Positions 23,601 to 32,600 of a stretch of 64,000 bases of DNA are shown in pieces (positions within the stretch are counted from its first letter, which is position 1; each line of letters starts with the position of its first letter). The notes under the pieces were generated by a model. The model saw only the letters and a list, made by a program, of their open reading frames with translations, ran no database searches and was not told the DNA's origin. Made by a program: the position numbers and the translations under genes. The DNA comes from Candidatus Gottesmanbacteria bacterium (lineage in GTDB: Bacteria; Patescibacteriota; Microgenomatia; UBA10105; UBA927), in NCBI GenBank assembly GCA_963711735.1, contig CAVQFA010000005.1, positions 7,525 to 71,524 on the forward strand. The letters run 5' to 3'.

Positions 23601-26600
23601 TGCTATCTGCAGAAGTTCATCAGTATCTGCAATTGCCTGTGTGGTTTTTAACATAATTGCTTCAGTCGTGGTTTGGCCTGTATTTTGTCCGGATACCAAA
23701 CTTATGGTATTGCTGGCACCATTATTGGTGGTTATACTCAGTTGTCCTGCGGACGCTACTTGAATAGTGGCGTACTCAGATGTTGAATATCCAAATCTAG
23801 CTTGTGTTACGGTATCAATTATGTCTAAAGTATACTGGGGATTTGTTGTACCGATACCTAATCCGGTTGAATTCAACGTCATTACGTTGGTATAAGCTCC
23901 GCCCATATCACTAAAATCAAACATTAATGACCCTATAGCAGCACCGAGTCCGCTCGTACTTGTATTGACATAAGCCATATATTCTTTTGATTCCGATCGT
24001 GTAAACAAGGTAGAATACGCGGAACCATACCACCTGACTCCAGGTGAATATTGGTTAGCTCCACCGGCAGCAGCGGTTTCATTGACAAGTGCCAAACCGT
24101 AGACTTCTGATTGTGCTGTTCCGATAGAATTATCTAAAACGTAAAGGGAAGAAGCTGGAGATGTCGCCCCGATGCCGACGTTCCCCGCAACAGCTAAACC
24201 TGTTCCGACTGATATACCTACTCCATCCCCATACCCGATGATCGCATTCTGTTCTACATGCAGATCTGCCATCGGACTGGTAATGCCGATACCCAGATTT
24301 CCGCTACCAGTGAGCCGCATTTTTTCTGCTAACGGACCTAATGATGGTGTAGTATTGAATACGAGATTGGACGGACCTCCTACTATTGCGCTCCATGCTC
24401 CTTCTGAAAACGCGTTAATTGAAGCACCAACAACATATGTTGTACCGGTGGTATATGCTTCAAAACCTAAAGTTCCGATCCTTCTGCCTGCTGCGTCGGG
24501 AATATTCATTGAGGATAACAGGAGGGCTCCTCCTGAGGTGGTACCGAGCGCTGAGGAATTTGATATCAGTGCGCCAAGGTTTGCTGTTCCGGATGTTATA
24601 TCTATAATTTGTTTTGGTGCTGTCGTTCCGATGCCAACGTTCCCGGAGTTTATCCATGAGTACCCGTTGTTGCCTGTTGTTGTTGCATTGAGATAGATGA
24701 GTGCTGATGAAGTTGCAGTTGTGGGTTGTCCTGCCGCTACGTTACTTCCCAAAACCACACTTCTATCAACGTTAGGGTAGGGGAATAAAACATTGAGTGC
24801 CGTGTTCCAGAGGAAATCACCGCCGGGACCCTGGGCTCCGGTTTGGCCGATCGGTCCGGTTGCGCCGGTTGGGCCATTTTTTCCGGTTGCACCTGTCGTT
24901 CCTGTTGCTCCTGTCGGACCGGAAAGTCCTGTTGCTCCTGTGGAACCTGTCGCACCGGTTGGTCCTGATTTTCCTGTTGCTCCCGTGACCCCTGTTGCAC
25001 CGGTCGGTCCGGAGAGTCCTGTTGCACCGGTCGAGCCGGTTGCTCCTGTGGGACCTGATTTTCCGGTAGCACCTGTTACGCCGGTTGCACCTGTTGGCCC
25101 TGACTGGCCGGTTGCTCCCGTTGCTCCGGTAGGTCCGGTAATTCCGGTTGCTCCCGTAACTCCTGTTGCACCCGTGGGACCGGAAAGTCCTGTTGCTCCT
25201 GTGGAACCTGTCGCACCGGTTGGTCCTGATTTTCCTGTTGCTCCCGTGACCCCTGTTGCACCGGTTGGACCGGAGAGTCCTGTTGCACCGGTCGAGCCGG
25301 TTGCACCTGTCGGACCTGATTTTCCGGTAGCACCTGTTACGCCGGTTGCACCTGTTGGCCCTGACTGGCCGGTTGCTCCCGTTGCTCCGGTAGGTCCGGT
25401 AATTCCGGTTGCTCCCGTAACTCCTGTTGCACCCGTGGGACCGGAAAGTCCTGTTGCTCCTGTGGAACCTGTCGCACCGGTTGGTCCTGATTTTCCTGTT
25501 GCTCCCGTGACCCCTGTTGCACCGGTTGGACCGGAGAGTCCTGTTGCACCGGTCGAGCCGGTTGCTCCTGTGGGACCTGATTTTCCGGTAGCACCTGTTA
25601 CGCCGGTTGCACCTGTTGGCCCTGACTGGCCGGTTGCTCCCGTTGCTCCGGTAGGTCCGGTAATTCCGGTTGCTCCCGTAACTCCTGTTGCACCCGTGGG
25701 ACCGGAAAGTCCTGTTGCTCCTGTGGAACCTGTCGCACCGGTTGGTCCTGATTTTCCTGTTGCTCCCGTGACCCCTGTTGCACCGGTTGGACCGGAGAGT
25801 CCTGTTGCACCGGTCGAGCCGGTTGCTCCTGTGGGACCTGATTTTCCGGTAGCACCTGTTACGCCGGTTGCACCTGTTGGCCCTGACTGGCCGGTTGCTC
25901 CCGTTGCTCCGGTAGGTCCGGTAATTCCGGTTGCTCCCGTAACTCCTGTTGCACCCGTGGGACCGGAAAGTCCTGTTGCTCCTGTGGAACCTGTCGCACC
26001 GGTTGGTCCTGATTTTCCTGTTGCTCCCGTGACCCCTGTTGCACCGGTTGGACCGGAGAGTCCTGTTGCACCGGTCGAGCCGGTTGCTCCTGTGGGACCT
26101 GATTTTCCGGTAGCACCTGTTACGCCGGTTGCACCTGTGGGACCGGATTGACCGGTTGCTCCCGTTGCTCCGGTAGGTCCGGTAATTCCGGTTGCTCCCG
26201 TAACTCCTGTTGCACCCGTGGGACCGGAAAGTCCTGTTGCTCCTGTGGAACCTGTCGCACCGGTTGGTCCTGATTTTCCTGTTGCTCCCGTGACCCCTGT
26301 TGCACCGGTCGGTCCGGAGAGTCCTGTTGCACCGGTTGAGCCGGTTGCTCCCGTGGGACCTGACTGGCCTGTTGCTCCCGTGACGCCGGTTGCACCTGTT
26401 GGCCCTGACTGGCCGGTTGCTCCTGTTGCTCCGGTAGGTCCGGTAATTCCGGTTGCTCCCGTAACTCCTGTTGCACCCGTGGGACCGGAAAGTCCTGTTG
26501 CTCCTGTGGAACCTGTCGCACCGGTTGGTCCTGATTTTCCTGTTGCTCCCGTGACCCCTGTTGCACCGGTTGGTCCGGAGAGTCCTGTTGCACCGGTTGA

Positions 26601-29600: not shown

Positions 29601-32600
29601 GGTTGAGCCGGTTGCACCTGTCGGACCTGACTGGCCTGTTGCTCCCGTGGAACCTGTCGCACCTGTGGGACCTGATTTTCCTGTTGCTCCCGTGACCCCT
29701 GTTGCACCGGTCGGTCCGGAGAGTCCTGTTGCACCGGTTGAGCCGGTTGCACCTGTCGGACCTGACTGGCCTGTTGCTCCCGTGACCCCGGTTGCACCCG
29801 TGGGACCGGAAAGTCCTGTTGCTCCTGTGGAACCTGTCGCACCTGTGGGACCTGATTTTCCTGTTGCTCCCGTGACCCCTGTTGCACCGGTCGGTCCGGA
29901 GAGTCCTGTTGCACCGGTTGAGCCGGTTGCTCCTGTCGGACCTGACTGGCCTGTTGCTCCCGTGACGCCGGTTGCACCCGTGGGACCTGACTGGCCTGTT
30001 GCTCCTGTTGCTCCGGTAGGTCCGGTAACCCCGGTTGCACCCGTTGTCCCAGTTGCTCCTGTCGGACCCGAGAGTCCTGTTGCACCCGTGGAACCAGTAG
30101 ATCCTGTCGGACCTGATTGACCGGTGGCCCCCGTGACCCCGGTTGCACCCGTGGGACCTGATTGGCCGGTTGCTCCGGTAACTCCGGTTGCTCCTGTGGG
30201 TCCTAATTGGCCTGTTGCTCCCGTTACGCCTGTTGCTCCTGTCGGTCCTGACTGGCCTGTTGCTCCTGTGACTCCGGTTGCGCCTGTTGGTCCTTGTTGT
30301 CCGGTTGCTCCCGTAACTCCGGTTGCTCCTGTTGGACCTGATTTTCCGGTTGCTCCTGTAACTCCCGTTGCACCTGTTGGGCCTGATTGGCCTGTTGCAC
30401 CCGTTGTTCCGGTTGCTCCTGTTGGACCCGAAAGTCCGGTAGCTCCTGTTACTCCTGTTGCTCCTGTCGGACCTGAAAGTCCTGTTGCACCGGTGGAACC
30501 GGTTGCGCCTGTTGGTCCTGACTGGCCGGTTGCACCTGTAACTCCTGTTGCTCCGGTTGGTCCGGAAAGTCCTGTTGCACCGGTGGAACCGGTTGCTCCG
30601 GTTGGACCAGCCTGTCCTGTTGCTCCCGTTGCTCCGGTAGGTCCGGTAATTCCGGTTGCTCCCGTGACTCCTGTTGCACCCGTGGGACCGGAAAGTCCTG
30701 TTGCTCCCGTGGAACCTGTCGCACCTGTGGGACCTGATTTTCCTGTTGCTCCCGTGACCCCTGTTGCACCAGTCGGTCCAGAGAGTCCTGTTGCACCGGT
30801 TGAGCCGGTTGCTCCCGTGGGACCTGACTGGCCTGTTGCTCCTGTTGCTCCGGTAGGTCCGGTAACCCGGTTGCACCCGTTGTCCCAGTTGCTCCTGTTG
30901 GACCTGAGAGTCCTGTTGCTCCCGTGACTCCTGTTGCTCCAGTTGGTCCTGGAGTCCTGTTGCACCTGTGGATCCAGTGGATCCTGTCGGACCTGCCTGG
31001 CCTGTTGCTCCTGTGACTCCTGTTGCTCCGGTTGGTCCTGAGAGTCCTGTTGCACCTGTGGACCCGGTTGCTCCTGTGGGTCCTGTTGTCCGGTTGCTCC
31101 TGTAACTCCTGTTGCTCCGGTTGGTCCGGAAAGTCCTGTTGCACCTGTGGATCCAGTAGATCCTGTCGGACCTGCCTGGCCTGTTGCTCCGGTTACTCCG
31201 GTTGCTCCCGTCGGTCCTGGAGTCCTGTTGCACCAGTGGATCCAGTAGATCCTGTGGGACCTGCTGGCCTGTTGCTCCCGTGACCCCGGTTGCACCCGTG
31301 GGACCGGAAAGTCCTGTTGCTCCTGTGGAACCTGTCGCACCTGTGGGACCTGATTTTCCTGTTGCTCCCGTGACCCCGGTTGCACCGGTCGGTCCGGAAA
31401 GTCCTGTTGCACCGGTTGATCCGGTTGCTCCCGTGGGACCTGACTGGCCTGTTGCTCCTGTTGCTCCGGTAGGTCCGGTAACCCCGGTTGCACCCGTTGT
31501 CCCAGTTGCTCCTGTTGGACCTGAGAGTCCTGTTGCTCCCGTGACTCCTGTTGCTCCAGTTGGTCCTGAGAGTCCTGTTGCACCTGTGGATCCAGTGGAT
31601 CCTGTCGGACCTGCCTGGCCTGTTGCTCCTGTGACTCCTGTTGCTCCGGTTGGTCCTGAGAGTCCTGTTGCACCAGTGGACCCGGTTGCTCCTGTGGGTC
31701 CTGTTGTCCGGTTGCTCCTGTAACTCCTGTTGCTCCGGTTGGTCCGGAAAGTCCTGTTGCACCTGTGGATCCAGTAGATCCTGTCGGACCTGCCTGGCCT
31801 GTTGCTCCGGTTACTCCAGTTGCTCCCGTCGGTCCTGAGAGTCCTGTTGCACCAGTGGATCCAGTAGATCCTGTGGGACCTGCCTGGCCTGTTGCTCCCG
31901 TTACTCCTGTTGCTCCTGTCGGACCTGAAAGTCCTGTTGCACCTGTAGAGCCTGTCGCACCTGTGGGACCTGATTTTCCTGTTGCTCCCGTGACCCCTGT
32001 TGCACCGGTCGGTCCAGAGAGTCCTGTTGCACCGGTTGAGCCGGTTGCTCCCGTTGGTCCTTGTTGTCCGGTTGCTCCCGTTACTCCTGTTGCTCCTGTT
32101 GGTCCACTTTGACCGGTTGCTCCCGTTACTCCGGTTGCACCTGTGGGACCTGCCTGGCCTGTTGCTCCTGTGGAACCTGTTGCTCCTGTGGGTCCTGAGA
32201 GTCCTGTTGCTCCTGTGGATCCAGTGGGTCCGGTAATTCCAGTTGCACCCGTTGTTCCTGTTGCTCCTGTTGGTCCTGAAAGTCCTGTTGCACCGGTGGA
32301 ACCGGTTGCACCTGTGGGACCTGCTTGGCCTGTTGCTCCCGTGACTCCTGTTGCTCCGGTTGGTCCTGCCTGGCCTGTTGCTCCTGTTACTCCGGTTGCT
32401 CCGGTTGGTCCTGCCTGGCCTGTTACTCCGGTTGCTCCTGTGGGACCTGCCTGGCCTGTTGCTCCTGTGACTCCTGTTGCTCCGGTTGGTCCTGAGAGTC
32501 CTGTTGCACCAGTGGACCCGGTTGCTCCTGTGGGTCCTGTTGTCCGGTTGCTCCTGTAACTCCTGTTGCTCCGGTTGGTCCGGAAAGTCCTGTTGCACCT

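What the first reader, a model, noticed from the sequence alone, without database searches (positions are those of the whole stretch)
24850..30150. About 5.3 kb of near-identical 261-bp tandem repeats (nested 45-bp sub-repeats): a copy-number hotspot and an assembly hazard.
Shadow ORFs with identical 85-aa translations recur every 261 bp (25076, 25337, 25598, 25859, ...). The same 87-aa unit continues to about 30150. Such high DNA identity over about 20 copies implies recent expansion or concerted evolution. The array is probably length-polymorphic in the population (variable fibre length), and short-read assemblies could collapse or expand it.
Basis: seen in the sequence. Interest (0 to 1): 0.55.

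Follow-up and report, generated by a model that had tools for sequence, protein, structure and literature searches.

The report
Giant bacterial collagen-like fibre gene repeats
The 261-bp tandem repeats are real and encode part of an enormous collagen-like surface fibre, about 6,700 amino acids long and possibly over a micrometre in length, in an ultra-small Gottesmanbacteria (CPR) bacterium; each repeat would add about 25 nm to the fibre, and the region does break genome assemblies.

Summary
A 261-bp period runs from about 24,876 to 29,447: 16 canonical units plus one 396-bp unit, 88.5-100% identical pairwise. More irregular units continue to 30,860.

The array is minus-strand coding sequence. 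Each unit is 87 aa, or 29 Gly-X-Y triplets, built from 15-aa and 12-aa sub-repeats. Of 46 variable columns, 39 are third codon positions.

The array is only the 3' part of a 14.4-kb collagen-like region (24,822-39,229; Pfam Collagen). This lies in one roughly 20-kb gene (40,708-20,649). The gene encodes an N-terminal membrane anchor, 1,600 GXY triplets with Thr at Y in 78%, and a 1,390-aa fibre-like C-terminal region containing a CBM-like domain.

As assembled, the gene carries nine 1-nt frameshifts, all upstream of the array. I judge these to be consensus errors, for four reasons: no Gly codon is substituted, orthologues are intact, leuS is also frameshifted here, and an independent assembly disagrees on indels.

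Syntenic collagen-like genes sit next to leuS across Candidatus Gottesmanbacteria. Their GXY lengths and repeat periods differ widely. An independent k-mer assembly breaks at both edges of the region.

Population-level copy-number variation could not be tested. Verdict: a new variant of bacterial collagen-like fibres, of moderate interest.

The parts
24876..29447 (-). Regular 261-bp (87-aa, 29-triplet) tandem array. It holds 16 canonical units plus one 396-bp expanded unit (28,269-28,664). The unit is C-(E|B)-A-B-A-D, where C=[13 protein letters not shown]=[16 protein letters not shown]=[16 protein letters not shown]=[15 protein letters not shown] and D=[15 protein letters not shown].
   Evidence: Pairwise differences are 0-33 of 261 nt. 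39 of 46 variable columns are codon position 3 (binomial P about 8e-13).
29448..30860 (-). Irregular or older units of the same array (192, 207 and 72 aa), made of the same 15-aa and 12-aa sub-repeats in other orders.
   Evidence: Lag-261 identity is 0.58-0.77.
24822..39229 (-). The whole collagen-like (Gly-X-Y) region: 4,805 aa, 1,600 triplets, 2 interruptions. X is Ala 37%, Pro 21%, Ser 14%. Y is Thr 78%, Ser 16%. G+C is 0.59-0.63 against about 0.45 in the flanks.
   Evidence: Pfam PF01391 Collagen scores 142.7-442 bits against a cut-off of 27.2.
30859..35890 (-). Stretch holding the nine 1-nt frame breaks. Each follows the Gly codon at 35,890 (+1 nt), 35,034, 32,545, 31,709, 31,269, 31,225, 31,091, 30,957 or 30,868 (each -1 nt). 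All lie upstream of the regular array.
   Evidence: After nine single-base corrections the gene reads as one 6,688-codon ORF.
39230..40708 (-). N-terminal region of the giant ORF. The start is ATG at 40,708. Residues 3-42 match the second half of a phage-integrase SAM-like domain. KRR is followed by a hydrophobic helix at residues 82-102 (window 40,403-40,465). A beta-rich ectodomain follows, then a Gly9 linker (39,230-39,256).
   Evidence: Residues 275-428 are 47-51% identical to the N-terminal ectodomain of the L034 and L036 orthologues.
23331..24680 (-). C-terminal region, residues 51-500: 'GNVGIGT'-type beta-strand repeats shared with about 100 Patescibacteria and other fibre-like proteins.
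   Evidence: PHROG tail-fibre family, E=1.4e-4. PDB 8ond_A (Bd2133), E=0.06.
22836..23288 (-). Variable beta-sandwich domain with a carbohydrate-binding-module-like fold. This is a fold-level match only.
   Evidence: AlphaFold2 model with mean pLDDT 76.8. Foldseek against PDB finds CBM22, CBM4, CBM16 and CBM61 and the C-terminal domains of phage tailspikes at E 1e-5 to 1e-4, probability 1.0.
20649..22835 (-). Conserved C-terminal module ending ...FNWWIIN, plus the stop codon (20,649-20,651).
   Evidence: About 35 homologues end with the same module. Orthologues L043, L067, L025, L032, L075 and L011 end FNWWI(I/V)N. The last 85 residues are modelled at pLDDT above 90, but no fold match is significant.
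40713..41228 (-). Upstream 171-aa ORF with a SAM-like domain (Phage_int_SAM_1). It stops 4 nt before the giant ORF's ATG, in another frame. The same split occurs in two other species.

Best explanation
The 261-bp array is protein-coding DNA on the minus strand. It forms the membrane-distal, C-terminal 2,000 residues of the 4,805-residue collagen-like (Gly-X-Y, mostly Gly-X-Thr) stalk of one giant gene (40,708 to 20,649; 6,688 codons; about 590 kDa). The organism is a Candidatus Gottesmanbacteria (Patescibacteria/CPR) bacterium.

Shown: the predicted protein has a short cytoplasmic N-terminus, one membrane helix, an ectodomain and a Gly linker. The collagen-like stalk follows. The 1,390-residue distal region contains fibre-type beta repeats, a CBM-like beta-sandwich and a conserved terminal module.

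Inferred: three chains form a triple helix, nucleated from the C-terminal module and zipping towards the membrane. The helix is probably stabilised by O-glycosylated Thr. The result is a tether up to about 1.4 um long that carries a sugar-binding tip, used to attach to other cells or surfaces.

Inferred: the array grows and shrinks by unequal recombination or replication slippage between near-identical 261-bp units, and between their 45-bp sub-units. Each unit gained or lost changes the stalk by 29 triplets, about 25 nm, without changing frame. Frequent exchange keeps neighbouring units alike.

The nine 1-nt frameshifts upstream of the array are most likely consensus errors of the assembly, not biology.
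For: Coding and frame:
- The GXY register is unbroken from 30,868 to 24,822.
- 39 of 46 variable columns among units are third codon positions (P about 8e-13).
- Pfam Collagen scores far above its cut-off.

One gene:
- Nine single-base corrections give one ORF with no internal stop, 1,600 triplets, only 2 interruptions and no substituted Gly.
- Orthologues are single intact ORFs of 1,406-2,983 aa running from a SAM-like N-terminus and a hydrophobic membrane-helix-like stretch, through a GXY region, to the FNWWI(I/V)N end. This holds in L043, L067, L025, L032, L075 and L011. L036 runs at least 2,946 aa from the same N-terminus as the window.

Organism and synteny:
- leuS is 65-70% identical to that of Gottesmanbacteria MAGs.
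- About 30 of 80 loci carry a divergent GPTGxTG collagen-like gene upstream of leuS.

Frameshifts as errors:
- In this window leuS itself is frameshifted at 43,772/3 in a T run, while more than 70 relatives are intact.
- An independent assembly of ERR12037368 reads through that leuS site, yet has other indel differences at about 40,295 and about 44,500.
- In relatives, frame changes occur only at N runs in the SPAdes-style NODE contigs (L001, L016, L021) and UBA6580 (L020). Local 1-nt indels occur in the two MFD single-chromosome MAG assemblies, L005 and L010.
- All nine lesions are 1-nt indels. None is a stop or a Gly substitution.

Turnover:
- Identity decays with unit distance.
- Relatives have different periods and GXY lengths, from 198 to more than 2,500 aa.

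Fibre and adhesin:
- C-terminal homologues are annotated as tail-fibre-domain or beta-strand-repeat proteins of Patescibacteria and Bdellovibrio.
- A CBM-like fold is predicted.

Thr glycosylation logic:
- (Gly-Pro-Thr)10 folds only when galactosylated, and T-G-A/T-G-P triplets are over-represented in bacteria (PMC11923368).
- A sugar-modification cluster lies at 6,889-16,202.
Against: - As assembled, the gene is not one ORF. Translation from ATG 40,708 would stop at 35,768.
- Three of the frameshifts (32,545, 31,709, 31,091) sit in identical sequence contexts extending up to 350 nt, and no intact copy of that context exists. That fits a real mutation copied by duplication as well as it fits a systematic error.
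- Seven of the nine breaks cluster in 1.7 kb.
- No reads were available, so neither the copy number nor any frameshift was checked against raw data.
- Triple-helix formation, trimerisation, glycosylation, surface display and binding are all inferred.
- The terminal module has no significant structural match.
- No Peptidase_S74 or other Pfam domain is detected in the C-terminal region.
Confidence: 0.75

Rival explanations
1. The gene is truly broken. The nine frameshifts are real mutations, and the array belongs to a pseudogene or to a gene split into several products. The 3' ORF (20,649-31,673) would then lack its membrane anchor.
For: - The frameshifts are in the sequence as given.
- Three share identical contexts of up to 350 nt, as expected if one mutation was copied by segmental duplication.
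- The sites are not long homopolymers.
Against: - There is no Gly substitution in 1,600 triplets and no stop in the corrected frame, although substitutions normally outnumber indels.
- Variation among array units is almost purely synonymous in a frame that would be untranslated from the native start.
- Orthologues are intact.
- The essential gene leuS is frameshifted in the same window.
- An independent assembly differs by indels in non-repeat DNA.
Confidence: 0.15
2. The number of units and their near-identity are partly an assembly product. The assembler or polisher may have collapsed, expanded or homogenised a repeat it could not resolve. If so, the real array differs in length and unit order.
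For: - A k-mer assembly of ERR12037368 cannot cross the region at all.
- The window shows consensus indel problems nearby.
- Some units are 100% identical over 261-522 bp.
Against: - Units carry an ordered, non-periodic mosaic of variants: E-type versus B-type units, a 132-aa unit, and a smooth distance-decay of identity. This is not what simple collapse or duplication artefacts look like.
- Relatives assembled independently show arrays of the same kind. L005 has 27.9 copies of a 189-bp unit at 92%.
Confidence: 0.12
3. It is a phage or prophage tail-fibre gene with a collagen-like shaft, not a cellular surface protein.
For: - There is a weak PHROG tail-fibre hit.
- Homologues are annotated 'tail fiber domain-containing'.
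- Structural matches are to domains of phage tailspikes.
Against: - Neighbours are cellular genes: leuS, comEA, comEC, argS, lepA, pilins and sugar enzymes.
- The gene is syntenic next to leuS in many Gottesmanbacteria genomes.
- The protein has an N-terminal membrane anchor.
- No tRNA genes are present, and no capsid, terminase or integrase catalytic domain was detected in the ORFs scanned against Pfam.
Confidence: 0.03
4. The frame changes are functional. They could reflect programmed ribosomal frameshifting, or slipped-strand phase variation that switches the fibre on and off or makes alternative Q/E-rich or R/N/S-rich products.
For: - All three forward frames are largely open because the coding strand is T-poor.
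- Frame changes recur in two other single-chromosome MAG assemblies, L005 and L010.
Against: - There is no slippery heptamer or long simple-sequence tract at the sites.
- A stop follows the first shift within 122 nt.
- Contiguous orthologues have no such sites.
- Nine successive programmed events in one mRNA would be without precedent.
Confidence: 0.03

Closest known systems
BclA, the collagen-like exosporium glycoprotein of Bacillus anthracis/cereus
   Same: Both are trimer-type bacterial collagen-like filaments rich in Gly-X-Thr. In BclA the number of triplet repeats is strain-specific and sets filament length (Sylvestre 2003, cited in PMC10470788). BclA's collagen-like region is glycosylated. 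From my own knowledge, sugar-synthesis genes lie near bclA, as they do here.
   Different: BclA is a few hundred residues long with tens of triplets, against 1,600 here. It has a 134-residue C-terminal domain that promotes trimer formation and an N-terminal domain that docks to BxpB on spores. The window protein has a membrane helix at its N-terminus, a 1,390-residue fibre-like C-terminal region with no Pfam match, and comes from a non-sporulating CPR lineage.
Other characterised bacterial collagen-like proteins (Streptococcus Scl1/Scl2, Legionella Lcl, Bacillus ClpA-D, Pasteuria fibres)
   Same: They are surface-exposed GXY stalks carrying an adhesive globular domain. Repeat number varies between strains (own knowledge; see also PMC4319854, PMC11162425 and PMC10761439, listed).
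   Different: Their stalks are at least an order of magnitude shorter. Scl2 is stabilised by Pro and charge rather than Thr (PMC11923368). Their anchors and head domains differ.
Annelid/vent-worm (Riftia) cuticle collagen
   Same: It is a very long collagen in which glycosylated Thr at the Y position replaces hydroxyproline as the stabiliser (Mann 1996, cited in PMC11923368). Its micrometre-scale length is from my own knowledge.
   Different: It is an animal extracellular-matrix protein, unrelated in origin, with no membrane anchor or fibre tip.
Trimeric fibre adhesins of phages and of Bdellovibrio (MAT fibre proteins such as Bd2133; 'tail fiber domain-containing' proteins with Peptidase_S74)
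   Same: The C-terminal region is homologous to proteins of this kind (a Bdellovibrio hit P0045 at E about 1e-16; PDB 8ond_A at E=0.06). A CBM-like domain like those at tailspike C-termini is predicted.
   Different: No Peptidase_S74 domain is detected here. The shaft is collagen-like rather than a beta-helix or coiled coil. The context is cellular.
Database-level 'giant' bacterial collagens
   Same: A survey states that bacterial collagen polypeptides reach up to 6,000 aa and that T-G-A/T-G-P triplets are over-represented (PMC11923368).
   Different: None is characterised, and none was linked to CPR bacteria in the searched literature. Among the 150 best of 75,707 matching cluster representatives, the longest protein is 3,911 aa and the most GXY is 1,455 aa, against 6,688 and 4,805 here.

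Membership tests
Collagen triple-helix repeat proteins (Pfam PF01391) / bacterial collagen-like proteins | Long uninterrupted (Gly-X-Y)n | tested here: met
   1,600 triplets, 2 interruptions and no Gly substitution after frame correction. PF01391 scores 142.7, 442 and 327.9 bits against a cut-off of 27.2 on three segments.
Collagen triple-helix repeat proteins (Pfam PF01391) / bacterial collagen-like proteins | Residues that stabilise a triple helix without hydroxyproline (Pro at X, Thr at Y, charge pairs) | tested here: met
   X is Pro in 21% and Y is Thr in 78%. 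The literature states that Gly-Pro-Thr peptides need Thr glycosylation to fold, so stability remains conditional.
Collagen triple-helix repeat proteins (Pfam PF01391) / bacterial collagen-like proteins | Three chains actually form a triple helix, nucleated by a flanking trimerisation domain | not testable with these tools
   Only monomer models were made. The C-terminal module is conserved, but its role as a nucleus is inferred.
BclA-type exosporium collagen-like glycoproteins | C-terminal trimer-forming domain of about 134 residues, and an N-terminal BxpB-docking domain | tested here: not met
   The C-terminal region is 1,390 aa with no Pfam family at E<=0.1. It has beta repeats and a CBM-like fold instead. 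The N-terminus is a membrane helix. BclA domain facts are from PMC10470788.
BclA-type exosporium collagen-like glycoproteins | Strain-specific number of collagen repeats that sets filament length | not tested
   No second spanning copy of this species was found. Only between-species differences were seen.
Phage tail fibre / Peptidase_S74 'tail fiber domain-containing' proteins | C-terminal Peptidase_S74 intramolecular chaperone domain (PF13884) | tested here: not met
   It is absent from the window protein at E<=0.1, although many homologues carry it.
Phage tail fibre / Peptidase_S74 'tail fiber domain-containing' proteins | Encoded in a phage or prophage with virion genes | tested here: not met
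   The neighbours are cellular housekeeping, pilin and sugar genes. The gene is syntenic with leuS across genomes.
Unnamed Patescibacteria giant surface-fibre family (SAM-like N-terminus ... FNWWIIN C-terminus) | Conserved C-terminal module ending FNWW(I/V)(I/V)N | tested here: met
   About 35 homologues align to the end of the protein. The orthologues next to leuS end the same way.
Unnamed Patescibacteria giant surface-fibre family (SAM-like N-terminus ... FNWWIIN C-terminus) | N-terminal phage-integrase SAM-like domain followed by a membrane helix | tested here: met
   There is a partial SAM-like match at residues 3-42. A full domain is in the adjacent 171-aa ORF. The helix is at residues 82-102. 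The same domains occur in homologues P0006, P0022, P0039, P0088 and P0109 and in orthologues.
Coding minisatellite / VNTR | Head-to-tail units with length a multiple of 3, high identity, and identity decaying with distance | tested here: met
Coding minisatellite / VNTR | Copy number varies between individuals | not testable with these tools
   No reads were available and no conspecific contigs were found.

The most novel reading that the evidence does not exclude
Gottesmanbacteria, ultra-small CPR bacteria, may build membrane-anchored, Thr-glycosylated collagen triple-helix tethers more than a micrometre long. That is several times their own cell diameter. The tether would carry a lectin-like tip, and its reach would be tuned in roughly 25-nm steps by rapid gain and loss of species-specific tandem units. 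Such tethers could be how these cells find and hold partner cells or surfaces, and would rank among the longest collagen-type molecules known in any organism.
Probability: 0.35. Interest if true: 0.7.

Novelty: new variant of a known kind. Interest (0 to 1): 0.5.

Why it matters
- Scale. If the gene is intact and the stalk folds, this is a collagen-like molecule with about 4,800 helical residues per chain, roughly 1.4 um, made by a bacterium about 0.2-0.3 um across (cell size from my own knowledge). That is well beyond characterised bacterial collagens.
- A candidate attachment organelle for a CPR lineage. These bacteria are thought to depend on other cells, and their surface biology is nearly unknown.
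- A clear case of fibre length evolving through in-frame tandem units.
- A source of natural hydroxyproline-free, Thr-based collagen designs.
- A practical warning. Genes of this kind are invisible or truncated in short-read or k-mer assemblies, and they carry indel errors in these single-contig MAG assemblies. Their size and frequency in CPR genomes are therefore probably underestimated, and automatic annotation will report them as several fragments.

Tried and rejected
1. Rejected as shadows. Only one minus-strand frame gives GXY, and variation is synonymous in that frame.
2. A tenth frameshift between the 171-aa SAM-like ORF and the giant ORF. Rejected. The same split, with the same +1 frame relation, is present in two other species, L034 and L036.
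3. The comEC in-frame TAG as a sign of errors or recoding. Rejected. Relatives also have two ORFs.
4. Frame changes in the NODE-style and UBA relatives (L001, L016, L020, L021) as evidence for biological frameshifting. Rejected. They coincide with runs of N.
5. A protein search with the N-terminal 485 residues returned nothing. The query probably included the Gly-rich tail, which swamped the word index. One search was wasted.
6. Exact-DNA scans of JGI metagenome contigs for the array/C-terminus junction and for the unit boundary gave 0 hits. No population comparison was possible.
7. Exact look-ups of the 1,646-aa ORF and the 665-aa LeuRS fragment found neither on record. The source assembly could not be identified. 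A literature search for the run accession also found nothing.
8. Promoter and terminator scans at both gene ends found nothing above chance.
9. A fold search of the last 294 residues found no match at E<=0.001. There is only a marginal likeness to C-terminal domains of Klebsiella phage depolymerases.
10. tRNA scan of the whole window: none.
11. High G+C as a sign of horizontal transfer. Rejected. It follows from Gly, Pro, Ala and Thr codons.

Full report
**Observation**

The periodicity is real and strong. Tandem Repeats Finder reports a 261-bp period over 24,881-32,743, with 29.9 copies and 85% matches, plus nested 45- and 90-bp periods.

Self-comparison at lag 261 gives 93-100% identity from about 24,900 to 29,250. 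It dips at 28,130-28,400 and decays to 60-70% by 30,500.

They lie on the minus strand, one per unit, and three are identical.

**What the repeat encodes**

The minus strand reads as Gly-X-Y triplets. Cutting the in-frame translation at each GPTG gives five common sub-repeats:
- A = [15 protein letters not shown]
- B = [15 protein letters not shown]
- C = [12 protein letters not shown]
- D = [15 protein letters not shown]
- E = [15 protein letters not shown]

The order is CABAD ... CEABAD CEABAD CBABAD ... CBABAD x5. The canonical unit is therefore C-(E or B)-A-B-A-D. That is 12 + 5x15 = 87 aa, or 29 triplets, or 261 bp.

There are 16 canonical units between 24,876 and 29,447, plus one 132-aa unit at 28,269-28,664. 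Three irregular units follow, up to 30,860.

Canonical units differ at 0-33 of 261 positions. Of 46 variable columns, 39 are third codon positions, where one third would be expected by chance (P about 8e-13). The array has therefore evolved as coding sequence in this frame.

Mean identity falls smoothly with the distance between units, from 96.5% for neighbours to 88.5% at 15 units apart. This is the pattern expected from local unequal exchange. They stay open only because the coding strand is very T-poor.

**The array is part of something larger**

Its G+C is 0.59-0.63, against about 0.45 in the flanks. Three segments score 143-442 bits on Pfam Collagen, where the cut-off is 27.2.

Upstream, an ATG at 40,708 opens an ORF with these features:
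- residues 3-42 match the second half of a phage-integrase SAM-like domain;
- a KRR motif is followed by a 21-residue hydrophobic helix at residues 82-102;
- a beta-rich region of about 380 residues follows;
- a run of nine glycines leads into the GXY region.

Downstream of the GXY region lie 1,390 non-collagen residues ending ...FNWWIIN at 20,652.

**Frame breaks**

As assembled, the GXY register changes frame nine times:
- one extra base after the Gly codon at 35,890;
- one missing base after each of 35,034, 32,545, 31,709, 31,269, 31,225, 31,091, 30,957 and 30,868.

All are upstream of the regular array, which is why the array sits in an intact 3,674-codon ORF. With nine single-base corrections, the whole stretch from 40,708 to 20,649 reads as one ORF of 6,688 codons (about 590 kDa). 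It has no internal stop, 1,600 triplets, only two small interruptions and not one substituted glycine. X is Ala 37%, Pro 21% and Ser 14%. Y is Thr 78% and Ser 16%.

**Are the frame breaks real?**

I think most or all are consensus errors, for five reasons.

1. A decaying gene should collect substitutions faster than indels. Yet 3,200 constrained Gly-codon positions are untouched.
2. leuS, an essential gene in this same window, is frameshifted at 43,772/3 in a T run. More than 70 related leuS genes align across that point as single ORFs.
3. Contigs from an independent assembly of run ERR12037368 carry identical flanking proteins but disagree on indels.
   - Their gene table shows one product running through the leuS site.
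   - They split the giant ORF's N-terminus at about 40,253-40,295, where the window is continuous and matches orthologues.
   - They fuse leuS to comEA. That requires losing the conserved LeuRS C-terminus, which the window and all relatives keep.
   - Each assembly is therefore wrong somewhere, which is typical of noisy-read consensus.
4. Orthologues that are contiguous are intact single ORFs. These are L043, L067, L025, L032, L075, L011 and L036. In the SPAdes-style NODE contigs (L001, L016, L021) and UBA6580 (L020), apparent frame changes coincide with runs of N. Local 1-nt indels are seen only in the two MFD single-chromosome MAG assemblies, L005 and L010.
5. Eight of the nine lesions remove the first base of the Y codon just before a GPT. 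This is the position where sub-repeat variants differ (Ala GCA versus Ser TCA). A mixed pile-up of mis-mapped repeat reads could be called as a deletion there (the mechanism is inferred).

The counter-argument is real. Three breaks lie in identical contexts of up to 350 nt with no intact copy. That fits a duplicated true mutation as well as it fits a systematic error. Seven breaks also cluster in 1.7 kb. I put about 15% on a truly broken gene.

**Organism and conservation**

The window is cellular DNA. It carries leuS, comEA, comEC, argS, lepA, three pilin-like genes and a sugar-modification cluster. No tRNA genes were found.

LeuRS is 65-70% identical to that of Candidatus Gottesmanbacteria MAGs. 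In about 30 of the 80 loci fetched, a GPTGxTG collagen-like gene lies divergently upstream of leuS, exactly as here.

Contiguous orthologues range from 1,406 to 2,983 aa, with 198-549 GXY residues. Several large contigs and single-chromosome assemblies show much more:
- L005: at least 2,580 GXY residues;
- L018: about 2,000;
- L010: at least 1,758;
- L006: at least 1,455.

Three of these (L005, L010 and L006) run off the 10-kb flank; in L018 the GXY region lies within the locus.

Their internal periods differ. L005 has 189 bp x 27.9 copies at 92% identity, and L010 has 180, 225 and 270 bp. Stalk length and unit design therefore turn over quickly between species.

**The distal region**

About 100 homologues share the GNVGIGT-type beta repeats (C-terminal residues 51-500). 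About 35 share the terminal module (666-1393), typically ending FNWWIIN.

These proteins are mostly from Patescibacteria. Their annotations include 'tail fiber domain-containing' and 'beta strand repeat-containing'. Several carry N-terminal SAM-like domains or C-terminal Peptidase_S74, and one is from Bdellovibrio. Weak direct hits are a PHROG tail-fibre family (E=1.4e-4) and PDB 8ond_A Bd2133 (E=0.06). None of the 120 listed homologues has a long GXY region.

An AlphaFold2 model of residues 495-860 has mean pLDDT 76.8. Its first domain is a beta-sandwich that matches carbohydrate-binding modules (CBM22, CBM4, CBM16, CBM61) and C-terminal domains of phage tailspikes at E 1e-5 to 1e-4. The last 85 residues are modelled confidently but have no significant structural match. 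No Pfam or NCBIfam family matches the distal region.

**Mechanism**

Shown: the domain order is short cytoplasmic N-terminus, one membrane helix with positive charges on the N side, ectodomain, Gly linker, 4,805-residue GXY stalk, beta-repeat shaft, CBM-like domain and conserved terminal module.

The rest is inferred:
- The bulk of the protein is extracellular.
- Three chains trimerise at the C-terminal module, and the triple helix zips towards the membrane, as described for collagens in PMC11923368.
- At 0.286 nm per residue (textbook value), the stalk would be about 1.37 um.
- Gly-Pro-Thr peptides fold only when Thr is glycosylated. Y is Thr in 78% of triplets, so O-glycosylation is probably needed.
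- A cluster at 6,889-16,202 would fit that need, but nothing links it to this protein. It holds an epimerase/dehydratase, three GT2 enzymes, two DegT aminotransferases, a methyltransferase, an acyltransferase and a PMT_2 enzyme. A second PMT_2 gene lies at 47,380-48,879.
- Copy number changes by unequal recombination or slippage between units. Because the unit is 29 whole triplets, any such change keeps both the frame and the GXY register.

**Assembly hazard**

This is shown directly. In the independent assembly of ERR12037368, one contig carries the pilin gene and the C-terminal region and ends at window position about 24,938. That is 62 nt into the last repeat unit. Another contig carries leuS and the N-terminal region and ends at about 38,931, roughly 300 nt into the GXY region. 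The 14 kb between them is unassembled there.

In the window the region is spanned but carries the frame errors discussed above. Gene callers would report it as four or five fragments.

**Comparison with what is known**

The closest characterised analogue is BclA of Bacillus anthracis. It is a Gly-X-Thr-rich, glycosylated collagen-like filament whose strain-specific repeat number sets filament length (PMC10470788 and the Sylvestre 2003 reference cited there). The window protein works like BclA in that respect but is not a member of that family. BclA's 134-residue C-terminal trimer-forming domain and N-terminal docking domain are absent, and the stalk here is more than ten times longer.

The distal region resembles phage and Bdellovibrio trimeric fibre adhesins. 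However, it lacks Peptidase_S74 and is not in a phage.

A recent survey notes bacterial collagen polypeptides of up to 6,000 aa and an excess of T-G-A/T-G-P triplets (PMC11923368). Very large GXT collagens are therefore known at database level.

An exhaustive search with three array units found 75,707 matching cluster representatives. Among the best 150, the longest is 3,911 aa and the largest GXY content is 1,455 aa. The top hits (P0121, P0122, P0124; 2,775-2,871 aa; 68-70% identity) end FNW(W/L)IIN, so they are family members. P0122 is an intact ORF on a 20-kb NCBI contig.

Full-text searches linking collagen-like proteins to Patescibacteria, the candidate phyla radiation or Gottesmanbacteria found nothing relevant.

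**Verdict**

- It is plausible but untested on population polymorphism.
- It is incomplete on what the array belongs to.

The feature is a new, very large variant of bacterial collagen-like surface fibres, in a CPR lineage where none has been described. Interest is moderate. The principle of repeat number setting fibre length is known. The scale, the lineage, the conserved synteny and the architecture are not.

Noticed in passing
window 41830-44536 (+), break at 43772/3: leuS is split into 665-aa and 258-aa ORFs by a +1 shift in a TTTT run. More than 70 relatives have one ORF across this point. An independent assembly of ERR12037368 reads through it. This is probably a consensus error in the window.
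   Followed up: yes
window 40708-41228 (-); L034 and L036 at about 8,800-9,400: A 171-aa ORF has one full SAM-like domain plus what looks like the first half of a second. It ends 4 nt before the giant ORF, which starts with the second half in the +1 frame. The same split, with the same frame relation, is present in two other species. In other relatives (L043, L067, L025) the SAM-like domain is fused to the giant ORF. This could be a conserved gene split or a conserved +1 frameshift site. It is unresolved.
   Followed up: partly
window 45459-47405 (+), TAG at 46356-46358: comEC is divided into a Competence-domain ORF and a metallo-beta-lactamase-domain ORF by an in-frame stop. None of 105 related ORFs spans both halves, so the split is shared by relatives. 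In some relatives the two halves are also in the same frame.
   Followed up: partly
window 6889-16202 (+) and 47380-48879 (-): A sugar-nucleotide and glycosylation cluster: NAD-dependent epimerase/dehydratase, three GT2 enzymes, two DegT-type aminotransferases, a methyltransferase, a hexapeptide acyltransferase and a PMT_2 enzyme. A second PMT_2 gene lies beyond comEC. These are candidates for O-glycosylating the Thr-rich stalk. No evidence links them to it.
   Followed up: partly
window 18300-20448 (+): Three consecutive pilin-like genes with an N-terminal methylation motif (one also has T2SSG) lie convergent with the 3' end of the giant gene. A 684-aa TPR protein lies upstream at 16156-18210 (-).
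   Followed up: no
window 3098-6448 (-): Three ORFs without Pfam matches: 3098-4354, 3948-4802 and 4805-6448. The first two overlap by about 400 nt in different frames. This may be another frameshifted large gene.
   Followed up: no
L005 86-5335; L010 1528-5676 and 7107-7760: Related Gottesmanbacteria chromosomes carry their own near-identical arrays with other periods. L005 has 189 bp x 27.9 copies at 92% identity. L010 has 180-, 225- and 270-bp periods and a 321-bp unit x 2 at 99%. Both also show local 1-nt frame breaks inside the collagen-like gene.
   Followed up: partly
window 35034-35890 (-): The first two frame breaks (+1 nt, then -1 nt, 856 nt apart) compensate each other. L010 shows a similar compensating pair about 460 nt apart (3,253 to 2,794). 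In the window a stop at 35,768 follows the first break, so the detour would not be translated through.
   Followed up: partly
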